From Labilithrix sp. (lineage in GTDB: Bacteria > Myxococcota_A > Polyangia > Polyangiales > Polyangiaceae), in contig JAHBWD010000010.1 of NCBI GenBank assembly GCA_019637175.1, positions 62,715-126,714 on the forward strand: a stretch of DNA of 64,000 nt, in the 5' to 3' direction. Of this stretch, positions 9,457-51,783 are shown one piece after another (the first letter of the stretch is position 1; the number at the start of each line of letters is the position of its first letter). The position numbers and the translations under genes were made by a program. The notes under the pieces were generated by a model, which did no database searches, was not told where the DNA came from, and saw only the letters and a program-made list of their open reading frames with translations.

Positions 9457-10056
9457 ATGAGCTCCGCTGCGTCCATCCTCCGTGCCTCGGTCACGATGCT
9501 CTTGGCGCTCACGCTCGTCACCGGCGTCGCCTATCCCCTCGCGGTGACGGGCTTCGCCCGCGCATTCTTTCCCGAGCGCGCGGGCGGCAGCCTCTTGCGA
9601 CAGGGCGGCGTCGTCGTGGGCTCGCGGCTCATCGGCCAACCCTTCGACGATCCGAGCTACTTCTGGGGCCGCCCCTCGGCGACGACGCCGTTCGCGTACG
9701 ACGCCGCGGCCTCGCGGGGCTCGAACCTCGGCCCGACCAACGCAGCGCTCACCGCCGCCGCCCGCGCGCGCATCGAGGCCCTTCGCCTCGCCGATCCCGA
9801 CAACACGGCGACCGTCCCCGTCGATCTCGTCACCGCCTCGGGCAGCGGCCTCGATCCCCACATCAGCCTCGCCGCCGCCGAGGTTCAGGTCCGCCGCGTC
9901 GCCCGCCTCCGCGGCCTCTCCGAGTCACGCGTCCGCGCGATGGTCCAAGCGCACACGGTCGAGCGCGGCCTCGGCATCTTCGGCGAGCCCGCCGTCGAGG
10001 TTCTTCCCCTCAACCTCGCCCTCGACGCCGAGGCTCCCAACCCATCGAGGCCGTAG
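9457..10056 (+). CDS. kdpC: K+-transporting ATPase subunit C (KdpC)
   Basis: ATG at 9457, 9 nt after the kdpB stop. 199 aa with an N-terminal TM helix and the conserved ...PFDDPSYFWGRPSA... and GSGLDPHIS motifs. The track shows it only as the tail of a frame-fused ORF. Confidence 0.9.
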   Translation: MSSAASILRASVTMLLALTLVTGVAYPLAVTGFARAFFPERAGGSLLRQGGVVVGSRLIGQPFDDPSYFWGRPSATTPFAYDAAASRGSNLGPTNAALTAAARARIEALRLADPDNTATVPVDLVTASGSGLDPHISLAAAEVQVRRVARLRGLSESRVRAMVQAHTVERGLGIFGEPAVEVLPLNLALDAEAPNPSRP

Positions 10057-10172
10057 AGAGAGGAAAGGAGAGGCGCGGAGACGCGGAATTGTTCCTGTTC
10101 TCGTCGATCGCAGCAGCGAGAGCACGCGAGCAAGAAGAGCTCCGCGCCTCCGCGCCTCTCTTTCCTGTCTCT
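10057..10172. terminator. Long imperfect inverted repeat between convergent kdpC and kup; probable bidirectional terminator or structured element
   Basis: The left arm AGAGAGAGGAAAGGAGAGGCGCGGAGACGCGG at 10057-10088 pairs with the right arm CTCCGCGCCTCCGCGCCTCTCTTTCCTGTCTCT at 10140-10172, with about 50 nt between them. It shares a roughly 25-nt core (GAAAGAGAG-G/A-CGC-G/T-GAGGCGC) with the element at 29859-30185. Confidence 0.45.
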
Positions 10173-12070
10173 TACAGCTCAATCTGAGTACCGAGCTCGA
10201 CGACGCGGTTCGGCGGTATTCGAAAGAACGCGTTCGCCGGCCGCGCGTTGCGCGACAAGAACGCGAAGAGGACCTTGCGCCAGCGCGCCATGCCGCGCTC
10301 GTCGGTGATGAGGAGCGTCTCGCGCCCGAGGAAGAAGCTCGTGTCGGCCCGGCGCGTCTCGAGACCCTTCTCGGCGCACAGATCCATCAGCTCGAGGACG
10401 TTGGGCGTCTGCATGAAGCCGTAGGCGGCGGTGACTTGGTAGAAGCCCTGACCGATGTCGTTCAGCTCCACGATGCGGCTCCGGCGCGGCACCTCGGGCA
10501 CGTGCCGCGTCGCGATCGAGAGAAGCAGCACTTGCTCGCAGAGCGTCTTGTTGTGCTTGAAGTGATGGAGGAGAACGGGCGGCGCGCCCTTGGGGTTCGA
10601 GGTCATGAACACCGCGGTGCCCTGCACCCGATGGGGCCTCGTGGCCTCGATGTCTGCCATGAAGAGATCGAGCGGCAGCGTCTGCGCGAGGTAGCGCTGA
10701 CCGAGGAGCGCACGACCGCGCCGCCACGTCGTCATGACGGTGAAGACGACCGCGCCGATCGCGAGGGGCACCCATCCGCCGCTCCCCAGCTTGGGGAGGT
10801 TCGCGGAGAAGAACGAGAGATCCACGGCGAGGAAGAGCAGCGTGAGCGCGGCCGCGGGGAGGATGCCCCACTTCCACCTTCGTCGCGCGATCGCGAAGAA
10901 CAAGACCGACGTGATGCTCATCGTGCCCGTCACGGCGATGCCGTAGGCCGCGGCGAGCTTCGACGACGATCCGAAGCCGACGACCAGCGTGACGCACGCG
11001 ACGAGCAGGCCCCAGTTGACCTCGGGCACGTAGATCTGCCCCTCGCTCGAGCCCGACGTGTGAACGATCGAAACGCGGGGAAAGAAGCCGAGCTGCACGG
11101 CCGCGCGCGCGAGCGAGAACGCCCCCGAGATCAACGCCTGCGAGGCGATGCACGCCGCCGCCATCGCGATGGCGCTGAGCGGGATTTTGTGCCAGCCGTC
11201 GACGAGGCCGAAGAAGGAGTGCGACTCCGTCGGCCTCGAGAGGAGCAGCGCGCCTTGACCGAAGTAGTTGAGCAAGAGCGCGGGGAAGACGACCGCGTAC
11301 CACGCGAAGCGGATGGGCGCTTTGCCGAAGTGCCCCATGTCGGCGTAGAGCGCCTCGCCGCCGGTGATGCAGAGAACGACGGAGCCGAGGAGGAAGAAGC
11401 CGTGCACGCGATCGTGGGCGAAGAAGCGGACGGCATGGCGCGGATCCACCGCCTGGAGCACGTCGGGCCGCTTGATGATCCAGCGAAGCCCGATGATCGC
11501 GATCGTGGCGAACCACACGAGCATGAACGGCCCGAAGATCGCGCCGACGCCGCCCGTTCCGCGCTTCTGTAGCGCGAACAGGCCGACGATGATCGCGACG
11601 GAGATGTAAACGACGTAAGGCTCGAAGGCGCCGGTGGCCTCCTTGAGGCCCTCGACCGCGCCGAGCACGGAGACGGCGGGCGTGATGATCCCCTCGCCGC
11701 TCAGCAGCGCCGCGCCGAAGAGGCCGAGCAAGACGAGCGCGATCCCCGACTTCGTCTTCTCGATGGCCTTCGGCTCGAGGAGCGCGATGAGCGCGAACGT
11801 TCCCCCTTCGCCGTCGTTGTCTGCGCGCATCACGAACGTGAGGTACTTGACGACGATGACGAGCGTGAGCGCCCAGAAGAAGAGCGAGAGAATGCCGAGC
11901 ACGTTCGCTTCGGTGACGCGCGTACCGTGCGCGGCCTTGAACGACTCTCGCATCGCGTAGAGCGGCGAGGTGCCGATGTCGCCGTACACGACGCCGAGGG
12001 CGGCGACGGAGAGCGCGCCGAGGCTCGAGCGGCCGTGACCTGGAGGGTGCGATCCGACAGGAGAGCTCAC
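10172..12070 (-). CDS. kup: KUP/HAK/KT-family potassium uptake protein
   Basis: 632 aa. N-terminal LGVVYGDIGTSPLYA signature, 12 TM segments and a cytoplasmic C-terminal domain. Confidence 0.95.
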   Translation of the reverse strand: MSSPVGSHPPGHGRSSLGALSVAALGVVYGDIGTSPLYAMRESFKAAHGTRVTEANVLGILSLFFWALTLVIVVKYLTFVMRADNDGEGGTFALIALLEPKAIEKTKSGIALVLLGLFGAALLSGEGIITPAVSVLGAVEGLKEATGAFEPYVVYISVAIIVGLFALQKRGTGGVGAIFGPFMLVWFATIAIIGLRWIIKRPDVLQAVDPRHAVRFFAHDRVHGFFLLGSVVLCITGGEALYADMGHFGKAPIRFAWYAVVFPALLLNYFGQGALLLSRPTESHSFFGLVDGWHKIPLSAIAMAAACIASQALISGAFSLARAAVQLGFFPRVSIVHTSGSSEGQIYVPEVNWGLLVACVTLVVGFGSSSKLAAAYGIAVTGTMSITSVLFFAIARRRWKWGILPAAALTLLFLAVDLSFFSANLPKLGSGGWVPLAIGAVVFTVMTTWRRGRALLGQRYLAQTLPLDLFMADIEATRPHRVQGTAVFMTSNPKGAPPVLLHHFKHNKTLCEQVLLLSIATRHVPEVPRRSRIVELNDIGQGFYQVTAAYGFMQTPNVLELMDLCAEKGLETRRADTSFFLGRETLLITDERGMARWRKVLFAFLSRNARPANAFFRIPPNRVVELGTQIEL

Positions 12071-12179
12071 GGCTCATCGTCACGTAGCGTGAATCCCGAG
12101 CGCCGACGTTAAGAAAGCATAAAGACGCGACCAGTCGCGGTCAGGCCGCCGCGCGAGGAGACTTACGGTTGCCCCGTCG

Positions 12180-14162
12180 ATGGCCGCTTCCCCAACTCGT
12201 TTGAAGGCTCCGCCTTCGGCGGCCGACCTGCGGGCGCAGGCCCAGCGGCGGCCGCTCGCGAAAGAGGCGGCGCCCTCGCACGCGCCGCACATCGAAGGCG
12301 CGCGCGATCTCGCCAAGCTCTCGCTCGCGGCGCTCGGGGTGGTCTACGGCGACATCGGCACGTCGCCGCTCTACGCGATCCGCGAGTGCTTCACCTTGCC
12401 GCAAGGCGTCGCGGTGACGCAGGCGAACGTGCTCGGTGTGCTCTCGCTGTTCTTCTGGGCGCTCACGCTCGTCATCGTCGTCAAGTACCTCTCGTTCATC
12501 ATGCGCGCCGACAACCGCGGCGAAGGAGGCATCCTCGCGCTGCTCGCGCTGCTCAAGGCGAAGCCGAACGCGGGCAGGCGCCGGTCGGTCGTCGTGTACG
12601 TGCTCGCGGCGCTCCTCGGCACGGCGCTGCTCTACGGTGACGGCGTCATCACGCCGGCGATCTCGGTGCTCGGCGCGATGGAAGGCCTCGGTCTGACGTC
12701 GACCTTCTTCGACAAGCCCGTGATCGTGACGCTCGCCGTCGGCGTCCTCGTCGGCCTCTTCCTCGCGCAGCGCGCGGGCACGGCGCGGGTCGGCGCGATC
12801 TTCGGGCCGGCGATCCTCGTCTGGTTCGTGACCATCGGCACGCTCGGCGTCTACTGGATCGCGCAGCGACCCGAGGTCTTGCTCGCCGTCGATCCGCGGC
12901 ACGCGGCGCACTTCTTCGCCGAGCATCGGCTCCACGGGTTCCTCATCCTCGGGTTCGTGTTTCTCTGCGTGACCGGCGGCGAGGCGCTCTACGCCGACAT
13001 GGGTCACTTCGGGAAGACACCGATCCGCGTGGCGTGGTTCACGGTCGCGTTCCCTGCGCTCCTCGCGAGCTACTTCGGACAAGGCGCGCTGCTGCTCACG
13101 AAGGGCGCGGTCGAGAACCCGTTCTTCGAGACGGTCTCCGGCGCCGCGCGCTACGGCCTCATCGGCGTCGCGACGATCGCCGCGGTGATCGCGTCACAAG
13201 CGCTCATCTCGGGATCGTTCTCCCTCACCCAGCAGGCCGTGCAGCTCGGCTACTTCCCGCGCGTGTCGATCAAGCACACTTCTGGCCGAGCCGAAGGGCA
13301 GATCTACGTGCCCGAGGTCAACTACGGGCTCATGGTCGCGTGCATCGCCCTCGTGCTCGCGTTCCAAGACTCCAGCCGCTTCGCGTCGGCCTACGGGATC
13401 GCCGTCACCGGGACGATGGCGATCACGAGCGTCCTCTTCTACGGCGTCGCGCGCCGATGGGGCTGGAGCAAGCTCGCCGCCGGCGGCCTCGTCGCGCTGT
13501 TTTTGACGCTCGATCTCTCGTTCTTCGGCGCGAACGTCCACAAGATCGCCGACGGCGGCTGGTTTCCCCTCGCCGTCGGCGCCGTCATGTTCACGATGAT
13601 GACGACCTGGCGTCGCGGGCGGGAGCTCATCGGCCAAGCGTTCGCCGCGCAGGCGCTCTCGCTCCGGGCCTTCATGCACGATCTGCACGCCGCCAAGCCT
13701 CCTCGCGTCGCCGGCACGGCGGTCTTCCTCACGTCGAGCCACGGCGGCGTCCCCGCGGTCCTCCTCCACTACTTCAAGCACAACAAGGTGCTCCACGAGC
13801 AGGTCGTCCTCCTCTCGATCGCCACGCGACACGTGCCCGAGATCCGGCGCATCGATCGCGTGAGCGAGATCGAAGATCTCGGACTCGGCTTCCATCGCGT
13901 ACAGGGGCAGTACGGCTTCATGCAGACGCCGAACGTCCTCGAGCTGATGGACGTGTGCGCGGAGAAGGGCCTCGAGACGCGCGAGGCCGACACGAGCTTC
14001 TTCCTCGGACGCGAGTCGCTCCTCATCACGGATAAACGCGGGATGGCGAAGTGGCGCAAGCACGTCTTCGCGTTCCTGAGCCGCAACGCGCGACCGGCGA
14101 CGGCGTTCTTCCAGATCCCGCCGAACCGCGTGGTCGAGCTCGGCGCGCAGATCGAGCTCTGA
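12180..14162 (+). CDS. kup: KUP/HAK/KT-family potassium uptake protein, second paralog, divergent to the first
   Basis: 660 aa, about 70-75% identical to the upstream kup across the core (LGVVYGDIGTSPLYA..., ...VLLHHFKHNK/VLLHYFKHNK...). The N-terminal 50 aa is Ala/Pro-rich, so the true start may lie a little downstream. Confidence 0.9.
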   Translation: MAASPTRLKAPPSAADLRAQAQRRPLAKEAAPSHAPHIEGARDLAKLSLAALGVVYGDIGTSPLYAIRECFTLPQGVAVTQANVLGVLSLFFWALTLVIVVKYLSFIMRADNRGEGGILALLALLKAKPNAGRRRSVVVYVLAALLGTALLYGDGVITPAISVLGAMEGLGLTSTFFDKPVIVTLAVGVLVGLFLAQRAGTARVGAIFGPAILVWFVTIGTLGVYWIAQRPEVLLAVDPRHAAHFFAEHRLHGFLILGFVFLCVTGGEALYADMGHFGKTPIRVAWFTVAFPALLASYFGQGALLLTKGAVENPFFETVSGAARYGLIGVATIAAVIASQALISGSFSLTQQAVQLGYFPRVSIKHTSGRAEGQIYVPEVNYGLMVACIALVLAFQDSSRFASAYGIAVTGTMAITSVLFYGVARRWGWSKLAAGGLVALFLTLDLSFFGANVHKIADGGWFPLAVGAVMFTMMTTWRRGRELIGQAFAAQALSLRAFMHDLHAAKPPRVAGTAVFLTSSHGGVPAVLLHYFKHNKVLHEQVVLLSIATRHVPEIRRIDRVSEIEDLGLGFHRVQGQYGFMQTPNVLELMDVCAEKGLETREADTSFFLGRESLLITDKRGMAKWRKHVFAFLSRNARPATAFFQIPPNRVVELGAQIEL

Positions 14163-27618: not shown

Positions 27619-28365
27619 ATGGACAAGGTCTTCAAGAGCGCCCGCGAAGCGGTCGCCGACATCCCCTCCGGCGCGACCGTCCTCGCCGGCGGCTTCGGGC
27701 TCTGCGGCATCCCCGAGAACTGCATTCGCGCCCTCTCCGAGCGCGACGTGAACGATCTCACGTTCGTCTCGAACAACTGCGGCGTCGACGACTTCGGCCT
27801 CGGCATCCTGCTGCGCAACAAGCAGATCAAGAAGATGATCTCGAGCTACGTCGGCGAGAACAAGGAGTTCGAGCGCCAGTACCTCTCCGGCGAGCTCGAG
27901 GTCGAGCTCTGCCCGCAGGGCACGCTCGCCGAGCGCCTCCGGGCCGGCGGCGCGGGCATCCCCGCGTTCTTCACGCCGACCGGCGCCGGCACCGCCGTCT
28001 CCGACGGCGGCCTGCCCCTGCGCTACGCCGCCGACGGCAGCGTCGCGAAGGCGAGCCCCAAGAAGGAGGTCCGCGAGTTCGACGGCCGCTCCTACGTCAT
28101 GGAGCGCGCGATCACCGGCGACTTCGCCATCGTCAAAGCGTGGAAGGGCGATCGCTTCGGCAACCTCGTCTATCGCCACACGGCGATGAACTTCAACCCG
28201 ATGGTGGCGACCGCGGGAAAGATCACGATCGCCGAGGTCGAGGAGATCGTCGACGTCGGCGCGCTCCCGCCGGATCACATCCACACGGCGGGCATCTTCG
28301 TCCACCGAATCGTTTTGGGTGAGCGCTTCGAGAAGCGCATCGAGCGCCGGACGGTGTCCCCATGA
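27619..28365 (+). CDS. scoA: 3-oxoacid CoA-transferase subunit A (SCOT/AtoD family)
   Basis: 248 aa with typical ...[11 protein letters not shown]... and ...[15 protein letters not shown]... motifs. Its stop overlaps the start of subunit B. Confidence 0.9.
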
Positions 28366-29039
28366 GCAACACGACCACGCAGAAGGGCCTCAGCCGCGAG
28401 CAGATCGCGATCCGCGCCGCGCAGGAGCTGCGCGACGGCTACTACGTCAACCTCGGCATCGGCATGCCGACGCTCGTGGCGAACTACATCCCGAGCGGCG
28501 TCGAGGTGGTGCTCCAGAGCGAGAACGGCCTGCTCGGCATCGGTCCGTACCCGAAGGAGAGCGAGATCGACGCCGATCTCATCAACGCGGGCAAGGAGAC
28601 GGTGACGATGCTCCCGGGCTCGGCGATCTTCTCGAGCGCGGAGAGCTTCGCGATGATCCGCGGCGGCCACATCGACCTCGCGATCCTCGGCGCGATGCAG
28701 GTCTCGGCGAAGGGCGATCTCGCCAACTGGATGATCCCCGGCAAGATGGTCAAGGGCATGGGCGGCGCGATGGATCTCGTCGCCGCGGCCAAGCGCGTCG
28801 TCGTCATCATGGATCACGCCGCCAAGGGCGGCGCGCCGAAGATCCTCGAGGAGTGCGATCTGCCGCTCACGGGCCGGCGCGTCGTGCACCGCATCATCAC
28901 CGATCTCGCGTGCATCGACGTCACGCCCGACGGCCTCGTCCTCCGCGAGGTCGCGCCCGGCGTCAGCGCGCGCGAGGTGCAGGAGCGCACGCAGCCCACG
29001 CTGATGGTGCCCTCCGATCTCGCCGAGATGAAGCTCTGA
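28362..29039 (+). CDS. scoB: 3-oxoacid CoA-transferase subunit B (SCOT/AtoA family)
   Basis: 225 aa with ...[14 protein letters not shown]... and the catalytic-Glu-region ...SENG.... ATGA overlap with scoA. Confidence 0.9.
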
Positions 29040-29089
29040 CGAGCGCGCCCGCGGATCTTCTCGCAGCCGGTAATCGCCAGAAGGCTCGT

Positions 29090-29470
29090 TCAGCAGTGAA
29101 CGAGCTGTGGGCCCCGGACGCCGAGCGCCTCGAAGAGGACGCGCAGGTCCTCCGCGTCGCTCGTGAAGAGCTGTCGGGGACCGCGCGCTGCGACGATCGC
29201 GACGTGCGCATCGCAGATGTCTGCCGTTCGGGCCTTGCCGCAGAGCTTGCCGACGTCCATGGCGATGGGGTCGAACGCAGCGATCACACAGTGCTTCAGG
29301 ACCTTCGCGAGTCGTGCCTGTCGTGCGCTCGCCCGCCAGACCTGCGCGACCGCCGTGCTCGGCGCGATGACGTCTTCCGTAGCGAGCGCCGCGTCCTTCA
29401 GCGCGCGCCACAGGACGCGATCGTCACGTTCGATCGCGATGAGGGCGCCGGCATCGAGTACGATGCTCAC
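29090..29470 (-). CDS. vapC: PIN-domain toxin (VapC-like) of a type II toxin-antitoxin pair
   Basis: 126 aa. N-terminal MSIVLDAGALIAIERDD carries the PIN acidic residues. 4-nt overlap with the upstream antitoxin ORF. Confidence 0.75.
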   Translation of the reverse strand: MSIVLDAGALIAIERDDRVLWRALKDAALATEDVIAPSTAVAQVWRASARQARLAKVLKHCVIAAFDPIAMDVGKLCGKARTADICDAHVAIVAARGPRQLFTSDAEDLRVLFEALGVRGPQLVHC

Positions 29471-29730
29471 ACCGACCGGCGAGAACGGCCCGAGCGAGTC
29501 CGTCGTGAGGGCTTCGAGGGTTTCACGGCTCGTCGAGCCGGCGGAGACGGCTCATCCAGCGGGCCGTGCTCCTGCTCCCACTCCCCCACGACCTCGAGCA
29601 GCCCCTGGGCACGAAGCTTCCTCCGTGCCGCATCCGCGAGCCACGACGAGGTTGGTTCCTTGCCGGCAGCCTTCTTGACCGCACGAGCGAGCTCCGCGTC
29701 GAGAGAGATCGCCAGCCGCGCAACCGTCAT
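29467..29730 (-). CDS. vapB: Ribbon-helix-helix-type antitoxin (VapB-like) with Lys/Arg/Pro-rich C-terminal tail
   Basis: 87 aa. N-terminal MTVARLAISLDAELARAVKKAA fits an RHH/CopG DNA-binding fold. Lies immediately upstream of, and overlapping, the PIN gene. Confidence 0.65.
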   Translation of the reverse strand: MTVARLAISLDAELARAVKKAAGKEPTSSWLADAARRKLRAQGLLEVVGEWEQEHGPLDEPSPPARRAVKPSKPSRRTRSGRSRRSV

Positions 29731-29830
29731 ACCGCGATATTACGATCGTGCCTCACTCGGTGCAAGTGCGGGTGGCGGTCTCGATCGCCACTGCTGCGCT
29801 TCGAGGTCCGATCTCGGCGAGACGAAGCTC

Positions 29831-30205
29831 TGACGAGAGAAGAGAGAGACGAGAGCTCGAAAGAGAGACGCTGAGGCGCCGAAGGTGCTCGCGGGCGTCG
29901 CTCCTCCTTCGTCGCCCTTCGGGTGCTCGCAAAGTTCGCGGACGAACTTTGCTGCGCAGTTGGGAGTCTCGCTTCCGATGCGCCGCGCCCTGCCGCTCTG
30001 CAGAGCTTCGGCGCGCGATCTCGGAACACGCGCGCGAAGGCGCAACGAGGTCGTCGGTCGGAAGAGAGGTCTCCCCTCGCGCAGGAAACTTGCGTCTTCG
30101 CAAGTTTCCGAGCACCGCAGAGCGGCCCGCGAGAGGAGGCGCTCGCAGCACGCCCTCACGCTCCGCGCCTCAGCGCCTCTCTTTCCCCTCTCTCTCGAGA
30201 GAGAG
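29831..30205. repeat. Highly structured about 375-bp intergenic element bounded by about 22-nt inverted repeats (MITE-like or structured ncRNA candidate) and containing perfect palindromes
   Basis: GA-rich tract 29831-29880 ends in GAAAGAGAGACGCTGAGGCGCC (29859-29880). Its reverse complement GCGCCTCAGCGCCTCTCTTTC lies at 30165-30185. Internal perfect hairpins are GCAAAGTTCG-CGGA-CGAACTTTGC (29929-29952) and GGAAACTTGCG-TCT-TCGCAAGTTTCC (30084-30109). The same about 25-nt motif recurs at 10057-10172. Confidence 0.4.
30188..30205 (-). terminator. Perfect 18-nt palindrome CTCTCTCTCGAGAGAGAG directly downstream of the regulator gene stop (hairpin terminator candidate)
   Basis: Lies 10 nt 3' of the stop of the minus-strand gene ending at 30215; 7-bp GC/AT-mixed stem with a 4-nt loop. 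No T-tract, as is usual in high-GC genomes. Confidence 0.35.
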
Positions 30206-30214
30206 CGAGCGCCC

Positions 30215-32710
30215 TCACGCGCGCACGAGCGGCGTGACGACGACGAGCAGGTAGCCCTCGGGGCGCGTCTCGAGCAGATCGCGGAGCCCCATCTTCCGAA
30301 GCGTCGCCACCGCGACGCGCACCCGATGCGACGCGGCGCTCGCGATCGCCTTCTCCCCGGGCCACGCCGCGGCGAACAGCGTCGCGGAGGAGACCGGCGC
30401 GTCGGGACGCTCGATCCGCTCGGCGGCGAGGCGATCGAGCAGGAGCGCGAGCGACTTGCGGCGCTCGAGGCCCACGCGCGACGCCGCAGGCGCGCGAAAC
30501 CAGCTCCCTCCCGCGCCGATCACGAGCGCGTCGGCCGGCGGCGCGGCCCCCGGGCTCGCCACCGCGACGACGCGCGCGAGGATGCGCGCGTAGAGCGATC
30601 CCGCGGGAGGCGACCACGACGCGGCGACGCCGTCGAGCGCCGCGAGGTGTACGCCGAACCACTGCGCATCGGCGCTCTCGAGGGGCGCGTGATCGCGCGC
30701 GTCCGCGAGCAGCGCGTAGGCTTCGGCCGCGGCGCCGCGCTCTCGCGCGAGGACGCCGAGGTGACCGCGCGCGTTCGCGGCCTCGCGCGCGAGGCCGTGA
30801 ACCGCGTAGACATCGCGCGCCGCCGCCAGCGACGACGCCGCGCCTTCGAGATCGCCCGAGGCGTGTCGAACGATCCCCGTCGCCTCGCGCGCCGTCGCTT
30901 CGCTCCTCGGATCGCGCTCGATCGACGACGCGTCGATCGCCGCGTCGAGGCTCGCCTTCGCCGCCGGCAGGTCGCCCGCGTCGGCGCACGCGCGCGCGTG
31001 CTCGACGAGGAGGCCCGCGCGGCGCGCGCGGTCTCGATCCGGCGCAAGAAGCGCCAGCGCCCGCTCGAGGAGCGCGCGCGCGTCGGTCACGACGTTCGAG
31101 ACCGACGCCTGGAGCGCGAGCGCGTCGGCCTGGCGCGCGCGCGCGCCGAGCGCGGCGAACGCCTGCGTAGCGCGCTCGAAGTGCTGGCGCGCCGCGTCGC
31201 GCTCGCCGCCCGCGAGCACGGTCTTTCCGAGCTCGAGGCCGGCGTCCGCCGCGACGAGGCCGTGGCCGAGCGCGCGCGCGAGCGACTCGGCGGCGAGCAG
31301 ATCCTTGAGCGCGCCGCGGAGATCGCCGCGCTCGCGGCGGAGCGCGCCGCGCAGGATCGTCGCGCGCGCCGTGAGCCCCGGATCGGCGCCCGAGTCGCGC
31401 GTGCGCTCGACGACGGGCGCGACGAGCGACGCGATCGACGCGAGCGGACCTCGCGCGAGCAAGACGCTGCTCAGCGCGACGAGGCCGCGCAGCGCCTGGT
31501 CCGCGCGCTGCGACGTGATCGATCCCCCGAGGACGCGCTCGACGACCGCGAGCACGTTCTCGCGTTCGTCGACGAGCCACGTGCGCGCGGAGGCGTCACG
31601 GTCCGCTTCGCGCGCGGCGCGCTCGGCCTCGGCGACGAACCACGCGGCGTGGCGCTCCTCGGCCTGCGCGATCGGCGCCGCGCGCTCGCGCACCACGTAG
31701 GCGCGCACCGCTCCGTAGAGATCGAAACGCGCTCCCTCGCGGCGACGCACGAGCGACTTGCCGGCGAGCGCGTCGAGCGCGTCGAGCGCCGACGAAGGCG
31801 GCGCGATCTCGACGACCGCGTCCACCGCGGCCGCCGTGAAGCCGCCGCGAAACACCGTGAGCTGCGCGAGCACGTCGCGCTCGTCGGGCGTCAGCGCGTC
31901 GAACGATCCGCGCACCGCGGCCTCGACCGACGCGTGTCGATCGGGACCGCCGCGCGCGGCGCGCGCGAGCGGCTCGGCGGAGCTTCGCAGGCGATGCAAG
32001 AGCGCTCGCGCGCCGAAGAGCGGAAGGCGCGCGCCCACGATCTCGAGCGCGAGGGGCACGCCCTCCATGAGCGCGACGATCTCCGACGCGTACGCGGCCT
32101 CGTCGTCACGGAGCGCAAACGCGTGCGCCCCCTTCTGCGCCGTCGCGACGAGGAGCTCGATCCCTTCGTCGAGCGCGCCGATCTCGTGCACCACCTCGCC
32201 CACGATCGCGAGACGCTCGCGCGACGTCACGATCATCTCCGCTTCGGGCGCAGCGTCGAGCCACGCGCCGGCGGTCGCGAGCGCGTGCTCGACGAGGCCG
32301 TCGAAGTTGTCGACGACGACGACGATCGCGCCGCGCGCCGCGAGCGCGGCGCCGACGCCCGCGACGCCGTCGTCGCTCGCGTCGAGGACGGCGTCGCAGG
32401 CCGCGGCCATCGCGTCGACGATCCCCGCGAGATCGCGCGCCGCCGAGAGATCGCAGAACAGCGCCGCCTCGCGCGCCCCTCGCGTGACGCGGCGCGAAGC
32501 ATGCTCCACCGCGAGCGCCGTCTTGCCGATGCCCCCCGGGCCGAGCAGCGTGACGAGGCGCGTGCCTTCGTCGAACCGCGCCGCGAGCGCGTCGAGATCA
32601 CGGCGCCGGCCCACGAAGGGGACCGCGCGCGGGAGGGTCGTCGAGGAAGACGGCGTCACGGGTTCAATCTGCCACAAGGATCTCTCGGTCGTCGCGCCGT
32701 CCGCTACCAT
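30215..32710 (-). CDS. NB-ARC/STAND ATPase - TPR-like - C-terminal OmpR/SARP-type winged-helix transcriptional regulator (AfsR-like with permuted domain order)
   Basis: 831 aa with Walker A LLGPGGIGKT and an NB-ARC-like region, then a long Ala/Leu/Arg helical-repeat region. The C-terminal approximately 70 aa SLALLLDRLA...LFAAAWPGE...SHRVRVAVATLRKMGL...EGYLL matches the Trans_reg_C consensus. Its start codon lies only about 11 nt from the divergent kinase start, so one of the two starts may be downstream. Confidence 0.85.
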   Translation of the reverse strand: MVADGATTERSLWQIEPVTPSSSTTLPRAVPFVGRRRDLDALAARFDEGTRLVTLLGPGGIGKTALAVEHASRRVTRGAREAALFCDLSAARDLAGIVDAMAAACDAVLDASDDGVAGVGAALAARGAIVVVVDNFDGLVEHALATAGAWLDAAPEAEMIVTSRERLAIVGEVVHEIGALDEGIELLVATAQKGAHAFALRDDEAAYASEIVALMEGVPLALEIVGARLPLFGARALLHRLRSSAEPLARAARGGPDRHASVEAAVRGSFDALTPDERDVLAQLTVFRGGFTAAAVDAVVEIAPPSSALDALDALAGKSLVRRREGARFDLYGAVRAYVVRERAAPIAQAEERHAAWFVAEAERAAREADRDASARTWLVDERENVLAVVERVLGGSITSQRADQALRGLVALSSVLLARGPLASIASLVAPVVERTRDSGADPGLTARATILRGALRRERGDLRGALKDLLAAESLARALGHGLVAADAGLELGKTVLAGGERDAARQHFERATQAFAALGARARQADALALQASVSNVVTDARALLERALALLAPDRDRARRAGLLVEHARACADAGDLPAAKASLDAAIDASSIERDPRSEATAREATGIVRHASGDLEGAASSLAAARDVYAVHGLAREAANARGHLGVLARERGAAAEAYALLADARDHAPLESADAQWFGVHLAALDGVAASWSPPAGSLYARILARVVAVASPGAAPPADALVIGAGGSWFRAPAASRVGLERRKSLALLLDRLAAERIERPDAPVSSATLFAAAWPGEKAIASAASHRVRVAVATLRKMGLRDLLETRPEGYLLVVVTPLVRA

Positions 32711-32721
32711 GGAGTCTCGCG

Positions 32722-34140
32722 ATGCGCGTGCGCCTCGACAAGTACGAGATCGCCCATCGGTCGGCGCAGACCCGGAGCCTCCTCGCGTTCGTCTTCGGCG
32801 GCATCGGCATCGTCGTCTTCGGCTTCCTCACGTTCCTCGGCGCGATCATGTTCGTGCTGCCCACGGGCGACGGCGGCGGCCTCTACGCGCAGCGAAGCGG
32901 GATCGTCGTCGGTCTCTTCATGGGCGCGATGCCGACGGTGATCAGCACGCTCGTCGTGGTTTGGGGCGCGAAGAAGCGCGCGCGGTTCCGCCGCCTCGGC
33001 GCGCTCGCCGGCCTCGCGCGCCAAACGCCGCTCTTGACCACGTCGCACGTCGCGCAGTCGCTCCGCCTATCGCCGATCGACGCCGACGGCCTCGTGCTCG
33101 AGGCGACCGCGCTCGGGCTCATCGACGACGGTCCCCACGCCACGCCCGTGACGGCCGGCGCGCTCGCGCCCACGGTCGCGAGCGACGGCGCGGGGCCATC
33201 GAATCCGCCGCCCGCAGGCGAGCGCGTCGGCCCCGGCACCGTGCTCGGCGGCGCCTATCGCATCGAGGAGCCGCTCGGCCGCGGCGGCATGGGCGAGGTC
33301 CACGCGGCGCGCCACCTGCGAACCGGGCGCCGATACGCGGTCAAGACGATCCTCCCCGGCGCGCGCGTCAACGACGCGCTCGTCCGCCGCTTCGAGCGTG
33401 AGGCGACCGCCGCGAGCGCGATCGGCCATCCCGGAATCGTTCAGGTCCACGACTTCAACGTCGCGCCCGGTGGGCTCTTCTACCTCGTGATGGATCTGCT
33501 CGAGGGCGAGACGCTCGCGACGCGGCTCGAGCGCACCTCCGCGCTGTCTTGGCCCGAAGCGCGGCGGATCGCGACCGAGCTCTGCGCCGCGCTCGGCGCC
33601 GCGCACGATCACGGCTTGCTCCATCGCGACATCAAGCCGGGCAACATCTTCCTCGCGAAGAGCGCGGCGAGGCCGTCACCTCCCGAGCGGGCCGTGCTCG
33701 TCGACTTCGGTCTCGTCAAGCCGATGGAGGAGACCTCGGCGGTCACGAGCACCGGGGCGGTGGTCGGCACGCCCATGTACATGTCGCCCGAGCAAGCGCG
33801 CGGCGAGACGCTCGACGTTCGCTCCGATCTCTACAGCCTCGCCGCCGTCATCTTCGAGATGATCACGGGCGCGCCGCCCTTCATCGATCGAACGATGGCG
33901 TCGGTGTACGCGCGTCTGCTCAAGGATCCGCCGCCTCGGGCTTCGCAGGTGTCGAGCCGCGCGATCCCTCCCGCGGTCGACGACGTGCTCGTCAAGGCGC
34001 TCGCGAAGGATCGCGCCGCGCGCTTCGGGCACGCGCGCCTCTTCGGAGAAGCGCTCGCGAGCATCGCGCCCGACGCCGCCGGCGCCGGGCCGCGCCCCGA
34101 AGAGGGCGCCGCGCCGACCACCGAGCGCATGGTGAATTGA
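32722..34140 (+). CDS. Hanks-type Ser/Thr protein kinase with N-terminal 2-TM membrane anchor and C-terminal kinase domain
   Basis: 472 aa. Kinase subdomains are present: GRGGMGEVHAA, AVK, HRDIKPGNIFL, DFGLVK, GTPMYMSPE. The N-terminal 100 aa is hydrophobic, and the linker contains an HTH-like segment (LLTTSHVAQSLRLSPIDADGLVLEATALGLI). Confidence 0.9.
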   Translation: MRVRLDKYEIAHRSAQTRSLLAFVFGGIGIVVFGFLTFLGAIMFVLPTGDGGGLYAQRSGIVVGLFMGAMPTVISTLVVVWGAKKRARFRRLGALAGLARQTPLLTTSHVAQSLRLSPIDADGLVLEATALGLIDDGPHATPVTAGALAPTVASDGAGPSNPPPAGERVGPGTVLGGAYRIEEPLGRGGMGEVHAARHLRTGRRYAVKTILPGARVNDALVRRFEREATAASAIGHPGIVQVHDFNVAPGGLFYLVMDLLEGETLATRLERTSALSWPEARRIATELCAALGAAHDHGLLHRDIKPGNIFLAKSAARPSPPERAVLVDFGLVKPMEETSAVTSTGAVVGTPMYMSPEQARGETLDVRSDLYSLAAVIFEMITGAPPFIDRTMASVYARLLKDPPPRASQVSSRAIPPAVDDVLVKALAKDRAARFGHARLFGEALASIAPDAAGAGPRPEEGAAPTTERMVN

Positions 34141-50151: not shown

Positions 50152-51783
50152 TCAGCGGCGGTTCTTCTTGCGCGCTTCCTTCTCGCGCTTGCGCTGGGCC
50201 TTCTTCGCGTTCTTCTCCTTCTCGGAGAGCGCCTTCATCTTCGTCAGGCTCTCGCCCGGCGGCCCGCCGCCGAGCCCCGGCATCATGCCGGGGAAGCCCA
50301 TGCCCGGCATGCCCATCCCGGGCATGCCCATCCCCGGCATCCCGGGGAAGCCGCCCATGCCGGGGAAGCCGCCCATGCCGCCCATGTTGGCCATGGCCTT
50401 CTTCATGTTCTTCATCGCGCCGAGCTGCTTCATCCCGGGGATGTTGCCGAGGAGGCCGCCCATGCCGCCGAGGTTGCCCATCATCTGCTTCATGAAGAGG
50501 AAGCGCTGGACGAGCTCGCTCACCGCCTTGTCGTCGTTGCCCGAGCCCTTCGCGATGCGCGCGACGCGGCCCGGCTCGCGGATGAGCGCGTAGGGATCGC
50601 GGCGCTCGAAGGTGGTGAAGCTCGAGATCATCGCCTCGATCTTCACGAGCTCGCGATCGTCGAGGTTCACGTCGCTCGGCAGCTGGTCCATCCCGGGGAG
50701 CTTCCCGACGATGTCCTTCAGGCTGCCCATCTTCTGGATCATCCGGATCTGCTGGAGGAAGTCGTCGAGGGTGAAATCACCCTGGAGCATCTTCATCGCG
50801 TCTTCGGCGGCCTTCTCCTGATCGACGACCTCTTCGAAGTCTTTCATCAGGCCGACGACGTCGCCCATGCCGAGGACGCGGCTCGCCATGCCCTCGGGAC
50901 GGAACTCCTCGAACTTGTCGGTGCCCTCGCCGACGCCGGCGAAGCGAACGGCCGCGCCGGTGACCTCCTTCACGCTGAGCGCGGCGCCGCCGCGCGCGTC
51001 GCCGTCGAGCTTCGTGAGGACGACGCCGGTGAGGCTCAGCCGATCGTGGAAGCCCTTCGAAACCTTCACCGCGTCTTGACCGATCATCGCGTCGACGACG
51101 AGAAAGACGTTCTCCGGATCCGTCTTCTCTTTGATGTCGGCGAGCTCCTGCATGAGCTTCTCGTCGATCGCGAGACGGCCTGCGGTGTCGTAGATGATGA
51201 CGTCGCAGCCCTTCGACTTGGCCTCGGCCTCGGCGCGCTCGCAGATCTCGACCGGCGACTCGCCGGGGATGCTGAAGACGGGCACGTCGATGCTCTGGCC
51301 GAGCACCTGGAGCTGCTCGACGGCGGCGGGGCGCTGCATGTCTGCGGCGACGAGCAGCGGCTTGTGGTTCTCCTTCTGGAGGTAGCGCGCGAGCTTGGCG
51401 CACGTCGTCGTCTTACCGGAGCCCTGGAGGCCGACCATCATGATGCCGGTGGGACCTCCTTTCTCCGGCGCGAAGACGAGCGCCGGACCTTCGGCCGTCA
51501 TGAAGTCGACGAGCTCGTCGTGGCAGATCTTGACGAACTGATCGGCGGCCGAGACCTTCATCGTCTCGCCGGCCTGCTTCGCTCGGATCTTCACGACCTC
51601 GCCGAGCGCCTTCTCCTTCACCCGGGCGAGGAACGTCTTGACGACGCCGAGCTCGACGTCGGCCTCGAGCAGGCTCAGCCGAACCTCACGGAGCGCCGTC
51701 TCGATGTTGCTCTCGGTGAGCTCGGTCAAACCGGCGAGCCGGTTCTTCGCCTGGCGGAAGCCCTTCGCAATCGCGTCGAACAT
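50152..51783 (-). CDS. ffh: Signal recognition particle protein Ffh, with extended Gly/Met/Pro-repeat and Lys/Arg-rich C-terminal tail
   Basis: N and G domains (GLQGSGKTTTCAKLA, DTAGR), an M domain, then about 90 extra residues (PGMGMPGMGMPGMGFPGMMPG...KKAQRKREKEARKKNRR). Good Shine-Dalgarno (GAGGAAAAGG) upstream. Confidence 0.95.
   Translation of the reverse strand: MFDAIAKGFRQAKNRLAGLTELTESNIETALREVRLSLLEADVELGVVKTFLARVKEKALGEVVKIRAKQAGETMKVSAADQFVKICHDELVDFMTAEGPALVFAPEKGGPTGIMMVGLQGSGKTTTCAKLARYLQKENHKPLLVAADMQRPAAVEQLQVLGQSIDVPVFSIPGESPVEICERAEAEAKSKGCDVIIYDTAGRLAIDEKLMQELADIKEKTDPENVFLVVDAMIGQDAVKVSKGFHDRLSLTGVVLTKLDGDARGGAALSVKEVTGAAVRFAGVGEGTDKFEEFRPEGMASRVLGMGDVVGLMKDFEEVVDQEKAAEDAMKMLQGDFTLDDFLQQIRMIQKMGSLKDIVGKLPGMDQLPSDVNLDDRELVKIEAMISSFTTFERRDPYALIREPGRVARIAKGSGNDDKAVSELVQRFLFMKQMMGNLGGMGGLLGNIPGMKQLGAMKNMKKAMANMGGMGGFPGMGGFPGMPGMGMPGMGMPGMGFPGMMPGLGGGPPGESLTKMKALSEKEKNAKKAQRKREKEARKKNRR

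What the first reader, a model, noticed from the sequence alone, without database searches (positions are those of the whole stretch)
29831..30205. MITE-like structured element with 22-nt terminal inverted repeats and two internal perfect palindromes, between vapBC and the regulator gene
- A 50-nt (GA)n-rich tract ends in GAAAGAGAGACGCTGAGGCGCC (29859-29880), and its reverse complement occurs at 30165-30185 (21/22 match).
- Between these lie two related perfect hairpins, GCAAAGTTCG-CGGA-CGAACTTTGC (29929-29952) and GGAAACTTGCG-TCT-TCGCAAGTTTCC (30084-30109).
- An 18-nt perfect palindrome CTCTCTCTCGAGAGAGAG (30188-30205) follows the right repeat.
- The ORFs predicted inside have biased composition and are not credible.
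- This could be a non-autonomous mobile element, a structured sRNA, or a terminator/antiterminator. It also provides the long 5' region of the vapBC promoter.
Basis: seen in the sequence. Interest (0 to 1): 0.5.

Follow-up and report, generated by a model that had tools for sequence, protein, structure and literature searches.

The report
Palindromic intergenic repeat between convergent genes
The 375-base stretch is a non-coding, hairpin-forming repeat wedged between the ends of two genes that face each other, with a shorter copy 20 kb away. This is a fairly ordinary kind of bacterial "junk or terminator" repeat, and it is not part of the neighbouring toxin-antitoxin promoter.

Summary
The terminal inverted repeats (20/22, not 21/22), both perfect hairpins and the 18-nt palindrome sit at the stated coordinates and exceed chance.

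- The whole 375 nt is one imperfect palindrome. Hairpin B is the mirror image of hairpin A.
- A 34-nt terminal unit (AGAGAsrGGAAAGAGAGGCGCkGAGGCGCGGAGC) recurs as a second inverted pair at 10057-10171. That pair exactly fills the gap between the kdpC and kup stop codons.
- The vapBC-like cassette (29044-29806) is a separate insertion flanked by a 31-nt duplication of the scoB 3' end. Without the cassette, the element lies directly between the stops of convergent scoB and the AAA/TPR/HTH regulator.
- Seven distinct related loci lack the element. In the closest regulator ortholog the two stop codons are 9 nt apart.
- Hairpins A and B differ only by compensated changes, so pairing is actively maintained.

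Best reading: a lineage-specific extragenic palindromic repeat (REPIN- or MITE-like) that inserted between convergent genes. It probably also acts as a bidirectional transcript-end hairpin.

Mobility is unproven:
- I found only two copies.
- There is no consistent target-site duplication.
- No transposase is in view.

Interest is low to moderate.

The parts
29838..30205 (.). Element 1: non-coding imperfect palindrome of about 370 nt. It fills the space between the remnant scoB stop (TGA, 29831-29833) and the regulator stop (30215-30217, minus strand).
   Evidence: Self versus reverse-complement global alignment scores 166 against -29 +/- 19 for shuffles. RNA fold z = -7.5 (+ strand) and -6.1 (- strand). 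There is no codon-position GC bias.
29847..29883 (+). Left copy of the 34-nt terminal unit (AGACGAGAGCTCGAAAGAGAGACGCTGAGGCGCCGAA). It is preceded by a GA-rich tract at 29835-29858.
   Evidence: Local alignments to the units of element 2. Hit of the arm profile.
30160..30193 (-). Right copy of the 34-nt terminal unit. It reads AGAGAGGGGAAAGAGAGGCGCTGAGGCGCGGAGC on the minus strand.
   Evidence: 31/34 identical to unit 2R. blastn gives 26/27 identity to 10139-10165, E = 8.6e-7.
29922..29958 (+). Hairpin module A: GGTGCTCG, then a perfect 10-bp stem with loop CGGA (29929-29952), then CTGCGC.
   Evidence: dG -20 kcal/mol, z = -4.2.
30078..30116 (-). Hairpin module B, the mirror image of A: GGTGCTCG, then a perfect 11-bp stem (30084-30109), then CTGCGC, read on the minus strand. 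Its stem differs from A only by compensated changes.
   Evidence: (I15, I24).
29953..30083 (.). Central part of the palindrome, with the apex hairpin CTTCGGCGCGCG / CGCGCGCGAAGG around 30010-30044.
   Evidence: The apex hairpin alone folds no better than shuffles (z = 0.18).
30188..30205 (.). 18-nt perfect palindrome CTCTCTCTCGAGAGAGAG at the right edge. Its CT half also pairs with the left GA tract.
   Evidence: (I17, I22, I23).
10057..10171 (.). Element 2: a 115-nt hairpin built from two inverted copies of the same 34-nt unit (10055-10088 and 10139-10172). It exactly fills the gap between the kdpC stop (TAG, 10054-10056) and the kup stop (TAA, 10172-10174, minus strand).
   Evidence: dG -83 kcal/mol, z = -9.3; I2; KdpC and K_trans domains complete.
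29807..29837 (+). Displaced copy of the last 27 nt of scoB plus 4 nt (direct-repeat copy 2). It marks where scoB ended before the cassette arrived, and element 1 starts right after it.
   Evidence: 31-nt direct repeat with 29013-29043, 29/31 identical. The same 3' end is conserved in relatives.
29044..29806 (-). Inserted vapBC-like cassette (vapB 29467-29730, vapC 29090-29470). It is not part of the element but explains the present context.
   Evidence: Flanking direct repeat. GC3 of 0.73-0.75. The PIN family is reached through relatives. A promoter-like motif lies inside the cassette.

Best explanation
Element 1 is one copy of a small, lineage-specific family of extragenic palindromic repeats. 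It is a foldback element of the REPIN or MITE type, built from inverted copies of a 34-nt unit consisting of a polypurine tract followed by a small GC hairpin.

Proposed history (inferred):
- The element landed in, or grew within, the very short spacer between the stop codons of two convergent genes, scoB and an AAA/TPR/HTH regulator. A shorter sibling did the same between kdpC and kup.
- A vapBC-like cassette later inserted into the scoB 3' end and now separates scoB from the element.

Proposed function (inferred, not shown):
- Transcripts entering from either side fold into a very stable long hairpin. Its 3' arm is always the pyrimidine-rich, U-containing strand (GCGCC-UCUCUUUCC).
- The element therefore most likely acts as a bidirectional transcript-end structure, either a terminator or a 3'-end protector.
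- At present it would also insulate vapBC from read-through out of the regulator gene.

The two perfect internal hairpins are kept paired either by selection or by palindrome self-correction. They may be the structures a transposase or an RNA-binding factor recognises.
For: Shown:
- Four copies of the unit form two inverted pairs in 64 kb. Identity is 31/34 between units 1R and 2R, against a best shuffle score of 23 versus the observed 53.
- Both elements fill stop-to-stop gaps of convergent genes.
- Both fold far better than shuffles.
- Element 1 is dyad-symmetric over its full length.
- It is non-coding.
- The closest regulator ortholog, L013 (61% identity), has only 9 nt between the two stops. 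Relatives L003, L008/L009, L010, L011, L012, L014 and L015 also lack the element.
- The vapBC cassette is bounded by a 31-nt duplication of the scoB end.
- Hairpins A and B differ at 6 of 24 aligned positions, yet both stems are perfect. Neutral drift at the divergence of the surrounding halves gives this with probability about 4e-5.
- A relative (L014) carries a different palindromic repeat at its own junction next to the regulator stop. Lineage-specific repeats therefore seem to be usual at this kind of site.

Inferred:
- Terminator-like behaviour, from the GC stem followed by UCUCUUUC on both strands. The consensus scan flags one such site on the minus strand.
Against: - Only two copies are known.
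- 20-mer scans of 185,579 species genomes and of JGI metagenomes gave only chance-like hits.
- A translated frame of the element has no homolog among 5.8 billion predicted proteins.
- There is no consistent target-site duplication. The candidate CGAGAGA for element 1 lies in a low-complexity GA tract, and element 2 has at best TA.
- No transposase or RAYT appeared among the window proteins scanned.
- The U-tract is poor: 5 U in 8. The terminator scan found nothing in element 2.
- Other convergent junctions in the window have no such element.
- The internal 250 nt of element 1 has no second copy anywhere in the data available.
Confidence: 0.6

Rival explanations
1. The elements are locally evolved bidirectional terminators that were never mobile. 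The two loci share the 34-nt unit because one was copied onto the other by a rare duplication or gene conversion, or because the motif is constrained by function. On this view the large size of element 1 comes from stepwise palindrome growth by template switching.
For: - Both sit exactly stop-to-stop between convergent genes.
- A GC stem followed by UCUCUUUC occurs on both strands.
- There is no target-site duplication, no transposase, and no further copies in public data.
- The compensated hairpin changes fit quasi-palindrome correction.
Against: - 26/27 and 31/34 identity between loci 20 kb apart is too high for convergence.
- Other convergent junctions in the window lack any such hairpin, and one has a 12-nt spacer.
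- Relatives manage with 9 nt between the same two genes.
Confidence: 0.22
2. Hairpins A and B are double-stranded palindromic operators for a dimeric DNA-binding protein, for example VapB or the adjacent HTH regulator. On this view the element is a regulatory region.
For: These are two perfect AT-containing palindromes (AAAGTT/AACTTT and AAACTT/AAGTTT) in a 70% GC genome, and they lie upstream of vapB.
Against: - The half-sites differ by G/C swaps that conserve pairing, not sequence, which points to structure rather than base-specific recognition.
- vapBC is a later insertion with its own promoter-like region and its own inverted repeat, GTGGCG-N8-CGCCAC.
- The hairpins lie at the 3' end of the regulator gene, not at a promoter.
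Confidence: 0.06
3. It encodes a structured small RNA or a cis-acting leader (riboswitch or attenuator) of vapBC.
For: The folding free energy is strongly non-random on both strands, and the hairpins are maintained.
Against: - There is no Rfam match above noise; the best E-value is 0.05, at 19 bits against a gathering score of 153.
- No promoter-like site lies in or next to the element.
- The symmetry is equal on both strands, which is typical of DNA palindromes rather than of an RNA gene.
- The element is not conserved in any relative.
- The vapBC promoter-like motif lies downstream of the element.
Confidence: 0.05
4. It is a chance or low-complexity artefact of GC-rich intergenic DNA.
For: GA/CT tracts and CGAG/CTCG motifs make many short complementary matches likely (37 inverted pairs in 900 nt).
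Against: Shuffle controls reject chance for the arm motif (0.00 expected), the folds (z = -6 to -9), the self-alignment and the inter-element match.
Confidence: 0.02

Closest known systems
REP / REPIN elements (repetitive extragenic palindromes, mobilised by RAYT transposases), best known in Pseudomonas and Enterobacteria (PMC3116915, PMC3337134; abstracts seen, papers not read; the details compared below are from my own knowledge)
   Same: [quoted passage not shown]
- The elements are strictly extragenic and placed at the 3' ends of genes.
- They are lineage-specific.
- Each unit holds a small GC-rich stem-loop.
- No target-site duplication is needed.
   Different: - Copy number is unknown; only 2 elements were seen.
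- No RAYT gene is in view.
- The unit is mostly a polypurine tract with only a 4-5 bp hairpin.
- At 370 nt, element 1 is several times longer than typical REPINs of about 70-110 nt, and it has a second internal pair of hairpins.
- There is no conserved GTAG-type 5' tetranucleotide. Element 2 has GTAG/GTAA, but these coincide with the stop codons.
Bacterial MITEs (for example Correia elements of Neisseria, ERIC, RUP, Nezha)
   Same: It is small and non-coding, has terminal inverted repeats, folds into a long hairpin, is intergenic, and is missing from orthologous sites in relatives.
   Different: - There is no consistent target-site duplication.
- No parent insertion sequence with matching ends is known.
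- The whole element is palindromic, not only its ends.
Bidirectional intrinsic (Rho-independent) terminators between convergent genes
   Same: - It lies directly after both stop codons.
- It has a strong GC-rich stem flanked by an A-containing purine tract on the 5' side and a U-containing pyrimidine tract on the 3' side, in both reading directions.
   Different: - The stem-loop is 115-370 nt rather than about 20-40 nt.
- The U-tract is interrupted (UCUCUUUC).
- The sequence is shared between unrelated loci.
Mx-rep, the repetitive intergenic element of Myxococcus xanthus (recalled from my own knowledge, not retrieved here)
   Same: It is an intergenic repeat family in another member of the Myxococcota.
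   Different: No sequence comparison was possible with the tools. Any relation is unknown.

Membership tests
MITE | Terminal inverted repeats | tested here: met
   The arms match 20/22 and extend to 38 nt at 79%. Element 2 has 40-nt arms at 80%.
MITE | Target-site duplication of fixed length flanking each copy | tested here: not met
   Read directly. Element 1 has only an ambiguous CGAGAGA (or CGAG) inside GA-rich low complexity. Element 2 has at most TA. The two copies share no duplication length or sequence.
MITE | Multiple dispersed copies in the genome | tested here: inconclusive
   There are 2 elements (4 units) in 64 kb. The rest of the source genome could not be retrieved. None was found in public genome or metagenome scans.
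MITE | A parent autonomous element whose transposase ends match the inverted repeats | not testable with these tools
   No transposase domains appeared in the window proteins scanned. The remainder of the genome was unavailable.
REP / REPIN | Two REP units in inverted orientation forming a hairpin, in extragenic space | tested here: met
   Both elements lie stop-to-stop between convergent genes.
REP / REPIN | A cognate RAYT (Y1 transposase) gene in the genome, flanked by REPs | not testable with these tools
   None appeared among the window proteins scanned, and only 64 kb of the genome is available.
REP / REPIN | High copy number (tens to hundreds) of an over-represented short sequence | not testable with these tools
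   Only the window is readable. It holds 4 units in 64 kb.
Intrinsic bidirectional terminator | GC-rich stem immediately followed by a U-rich tract on both strands | tested here: inconclusive
   The tail is UCUCUUUC (5 U of 8). The consensus scan flags one site on the minus strand of element 1 and none in element 2.
Intrinsic bidirectional terminator | Transcript 3' ends map to the hairpin | not testable with these tools
   No transcript data are available.
Any Rfam RNA family | Covariance-model score at or above the gathering threshold | tested here: not met
   The best hits score 19.5 and 18.8 bits against thresholds of 58 and 153.

The most novel reading that the evidence does not exclude
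The 34-nt units and the hairpin modules A and B may be the recognition structures of an undescribed single-strand-DNA transposition system in Labilithrix-type Myxococcota, analogous to REPIN-RAYT. On this reading element 1 is a nested composite: an inner hairpin pair inserted into the loop of an outer element of the element-2 type. The perfect but covarying hairpins would then be kept by selection for transposase recognition.
Probability: 0.12. Interest if true: 0.5.

Novelty: new member of a known kind. Interest (0 to 1): 0.25.

Why it matters
If the reading is right, this adds a lineage-specific extragenic palindromic repeat family to a poorly studied myxobacterial group.

It also records a short local history in three steps:
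- two tightly abutting convergent genes;
- insertion of a palindromic repeat between their stops;
- insertion of a toxin-antitoxin cassette into the 3' end of scoB, with duplication of that end.

This is useful for annotation. It stops spurious ORFs being called inside the element, and it stops the element being read as a vapBC leader. The covarying perfect hairpins are the one feature that hints at a maintained function worth an experiment. None of this would surprise a specialist in bacterial repeats.

Tried and rejected
- **Rfam scan of 29000-31000** at permissive E-values returned only noise.
- **Exact-word scan of GTDB species genomes** with AAAGAGAGGCGCNGAGGCGC gave 2 unrelated hits, in a Lentisphaerae and a Ruminiclostridium MAG.
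- **Exact-word scan of metagenome contigs** with AAGAGAGGCGCNGAGGCGCGG gave 4 hits, none palindromic or in a comparable context.
- **Retrieving the source contig.** The source is a Labilithrix sp. MAG, locus tag KF819_10485, on a 190,714-nt contig. Look-ups by exact protein failed, so the genome-wide copy number could not be counted.
- **Profile search with the four arms** found nothing beyond those arms in the window, and nothing in 111 kb of related loci.
- **Protein search with a translated frame of the element**, intended to catch spurious ORFs called on other copies, gave no hit.
- **blastn of the element against PLSDB plasmids** gave no match. The cassette gave only three short chance-like hits.
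- **A loose pattern for further hairpin-A/B-type modules** (GGTGCTCG-N26-CTGCGC, 3 mismatches) was uninformative, with 90 hits against 52 expected, mostly coding.
- **Internal ORFs as real genes:** rejected, because there is no codon-position GC bias.
- **The element as the vapBC promoter region:** rejected, because of the cassette boundaries and the promoter-like motif inside the cassette.

Full report
**1. Source and setting.**
- The window has 70% G+C.
- Its ScoB protein is 100% identical to a protein annotated in a Labilithrix sp. MAG on a 190,714-nt contig. The regulator matches KF819_10485 of the same MAG.
- Genes around the finding:
  - scoA, 27619-28365 (+).
  - scoB, 28362-29039 (+).
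  - A two-gene pair on the minus strand: vapC-like 29090-29470 and vapB-like 29467-29730, overlapping by 4 nt.
  - The structured stretch.
  - An 831-aa AAA_16/NB-ARC/TPR regulator, 30215-32710 (-), whose orthologs carry HTH_77.
  - A Ser/Thr kinase, 32554-34140 (+).

**2. Check of the observation.** All reported features are real.
- The 22-nt left arm (29859-29880) has its reverse complement at 30164-30185 with two mismatches, so 20/22 rather than 21/22. Shuffles expect no match at up to 3 mismatches.
- The arms extend to 38 nt at 79% complementarity.
- Hairpin A (29929-29952) has a perfect 10-bp stem. Hairpin B (30084-30109) has a perfect 11-bp stem with a 4-nt loop.
- The 18-nt palindrome starts at 30188.
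- The window holds 7 distinct perfect hairpins with arms of at least 10 bp (10 scan entries), against 2.35 +/- 1.65 entries in shuffles. A and B are the only ones outside coding sequence.
- The stretch has no codon-position GC bias (0.63/0.71/0.66, against a GC3 of 0.96 in scoB). The ORFs inside are not genes.

**3. The anatomy is simpler than described: one large palindrome.**
- Aligning 29834-30214 with its own reverse complement gives a score of 166, against -29 +/- 19 for shuffles.
- Left and right halves align from the GA tracts through the arms and the hairpins nearly to the apex, at about 30025.
- Hairpin B is the mirror image of hairpin A. Both read GGTGCTCG, stem-loop, CTGCGC on their respective strands.
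- As RNA, either strand folds into one long branched hairpin: -225 and -227 kcal/mol, z = -7.5 and -6.1.

**4. A second copy exists.**
- The arm motif matches once more, at 10143-10164.
- That locus is a 115-nt hairpin (10057-10171; -83 kcal/mol, z = -9.3).
- It is made of two inverted copies of the same 34-nt unit, AGAGAsrGGAAAGAGAGGCGCkGAGGCGCGGAGC.
- Units 1R and 2R are 31/34 identical: local score 53, against 15 +/- 2.5 and a maximum of 23 for shuffles. blastn gives 26/27, E = 8.6e-7.
- Element 2 exactly fills the gap between the kdpC stop (TAG, 10054-10056) and the kup stop (TAA, 10172-10174, minus strand). Both proteins have complete Pfam domains up to their ends.
- A profile built from the four units finds nothing else in the window.

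**5. The vapBC-like pair is a separate, later insertion.**
- A 31-nt direct repeat (29013-29043 and 29807-29837, 29/31 identical) flanks the pair.
- The repeat is the 3' end of scoB, including its stop codon and 4 further bases. The same coding end is conserved in relatives.
- The copy attached to scoB encodes the consensus ...DLAEMKL*. The displaced copy carries two non-synonymous changes.
- The cassette has a GC3 of 0.73-0.75, against 0.94-0.96 in its neighbours.
- The toxin itself only weakly matches Pfam PIN (E = 0.016). However, 24 of 40 of its relatives match PIN, and the family's invariant or nearly invariant D6, D84 and D105 fit the PIN acidic residues.
- A promoter-like TTGCAC-17 nt-TAATAT lies 6 nt before the vapB ATG, inside the cassette. 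The consensus scan does not flag it, because its first hexamer matches only 3 of 6 positions.
- The structured element is therefore not the vapBC 5' region.
- With the cassette removed, element 1 begins 4 nt after the scoB stop and ends about 9 nt before the regulator stop. This is the same stop-to-stop position as element 2.

**6. Relatives.** The regulator's closest orthologs are only 57-62% identical, so no close relative is available. The junction differs in each related locus:

| Locus | Junction between regulator and scoB |
|---|---|
| L013 (61% identity) | stops 9 nt apart |
| L015 | one GIDE-like gene, then 9 nt |
| L014 | one 303-aa gene |
| L008 / L009 (same contig in two sources) | two genes |
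| L003 | three genes |
| L010, L012 | kinase-regulator pair inverted |
| L011 | several genes, including a ParE pair |

- None of these loci carries the unit.
- L014 has a different repeat-rich palindrome (units CGTCTAGSCCCTGGAC) at its own convergent junction next to the regulator stop, z = -5.1.
- The junction is therefore a hot spot, and lineage-specific palindromic repeats at such junctions appear to be common in this group.

**7. The search for further copies failed.**
- Exact-word scans of GTDB species genomes and of metagenome contigs gave only chance-like hits.
- The source contig could not be fetched.
- A translated frame of the element has no homolog among 5.8 billion predicted proteins.
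- There is no match in PLSDB and nothing in Rfam.
- No transposase domain appeared among the 20 window proteins scanned.

**8. The hairpins are maintained.**
- The two halves differ at 21.6% of aligned positions outside the hairpin (30 of 139).
- Hairpins A and B differ at 6 of 24 aligned positions, yet each stem is perfect. The differences are C:G to G:C and G:C to C:G swaps plus one added pair.
- A simulation at the same divergence keeps both stems perfect in 1.1% of runs. It does so with at least two compensated pairs in only 4e-5 of runs.
- Pairing is therefore either selected, at the level of RNA or single-stranded DNA structure, or restored by template-switch correction within quasi-palindromes. 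The second mechanism is established knowledge; I did not test it here.
- Conservation of pairing rather than of sequence argues against a base-specific double-stranded operator.

**9. Mechanism.**
- Shown: there is a dispersed repeat family with at least two members. Both members are extragenic palindromes sitting exactly between convergent stop codons. The family is absent from relatives.
- Inferred origin: the elements arose by insertion (mobile or copied) into minimal spacers.
- Inferred function:
  - Because the element is palindromic, the 5' arm of a transcript from either direction is the purine strand (GGAAAGAGAGGCGC...).
  - The 3' arm is always GC-rich followed by UCUCUUUCC.
  - This has the form of a bidirectional intrinsic terminator with a poor U-tract. 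The consensus scan flags one such site on the minus strand of element 1 and none in element 2.
  - I therefore rate a transcript-end role (termination, 3'-end protection, insulation of vapBC from regulator read-through) as the most likely function, with modest confidence.
- Other convergent junctions in the window lack such hairpins, so the cell does not generally require one.

**10. Comparison with known kinds.**
- The architecture is closest to REPINs: inverted REP doublets forming a hairpin, in extragenic positions at the 3' ends of genes, and needing no target duplication. I saw only the abstracts of PMC3116915 and PMC3337134; the REPIN features compared here rest on my own knowledge.
- It also resembles bacterial MITEs and bidirectional terminators.
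- Membership in any of these cannot be claimed:
  - The MITE target-duplication criterion is not met.
  - Copy number and a cognate transposase are untestable with 64 kb.
  - Terminator activity needs transcript data.

**11. Verdict.**
- The finding is real, non-random and repeat-derived.
- It is best filed as a new member of the known kind "extragenic palindromic repeats between convergent genes".
- Interest is low to moderate, raised slightly by the covarying perfect hairpins and by the neatly reconstructable insertion history.

Noticed in passing
window 29013-29043 and 29807-29837, enclosing 29044-29806: The vapBC-like (PIN toxin) cassette is flanked by a 31-nt direct repeat that duplicates the 3' end of scoB, stop codon included. 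The repeat contains a 13-nt palindrome, ATCTCG-C-CGAGAT. The cassette has a much lower GC3 (0.73-0.75) than its neighbours. No integrase is present. The layout resembles a minimal integrated island that restores the target gene's 3' end.
   Followed up: partly
window 29083-29106: A perfect 10-bp hairpin (GGCTCGTTCA-GCAG-TGAACGAGCT, -21.7 kcal/mol, z = -4.2) overlaps the vapC stop codon. It lies 45 nt after the scoB stop and may now serve as the terminator between the convergent scoB and vapC.
   Followed up: partly
window 29731-29806 (minus strand): A promoter-like TTGCAC-17 nt-TAATAT ends 6 nt before the vapB ATG, which suggests a leaderless or near-leaderless mRNA. An inverted repeat, GTGGCG-N8-CGCCAC, lies just upstream and could be the antitoxin operator.
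   Followed up: no
window 10057-10171: A second, shorter member of the same palindromic repeat family lies exactly between the kdpC and kup stop codons. Both stop codons (TAG and TAA) fall within the inverted repeat.
   Followed up: yes
window 11938-12022 and 12309-12393: Two full-length kup (K_trans) paralogues lie head to head (10172-12070 minus, 12123-14162 plus). Their 5' coding ends form an 85-nt inverted repeat at 82%, so this is an inverted gene duplication next to the kdp operon.
   Followed up: no
window 29817-29837 versus 29996-30016: The centre of element 1 contains CAGAGCTTCG, the exact reverse complement of the last scoB codons CGAAGCTCTG. It also contains GCGATCTCGG, which resembles the scoB end in direct orientation. 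This may be chance, or a trace of how the palindrome grew. It is unexplained.
   Followed up: no
L014 7910-8010 and L014 6826-6925: A related bacterium carries a different repeat-rich palindrome (units CGTCTAGSCCCTGGAC in direct and inverted order, z = -5.1) next to the stop of the orthologous regulator. It also carries an 18-nt tandem repeat (GTCGCCCTCGTCGCGCTC-like) downstream of scoB.
   Followed up: partly
L003, L008, L010-L015 (junction between scoB and the regulator): The junction is hypervariable among relatives: 9 nt, one, two or three unrelated genes, an inversion of the kinase-regulator pair, or a ParE toxin-antitoxin pair. It is a recurrent landing site for accessory DNA.
   Followed up: partly
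window 50285-50340: A 27-nt inverted repeat at 85% (ATGCCGGGGAAGCCCATGCCCGGCATG / CATCCCGGGCATGCCCATCCCCGGCAT) lies inside a coding region. It probably encodes a short Met/Pro/Gly repeat.
   Followed up: no
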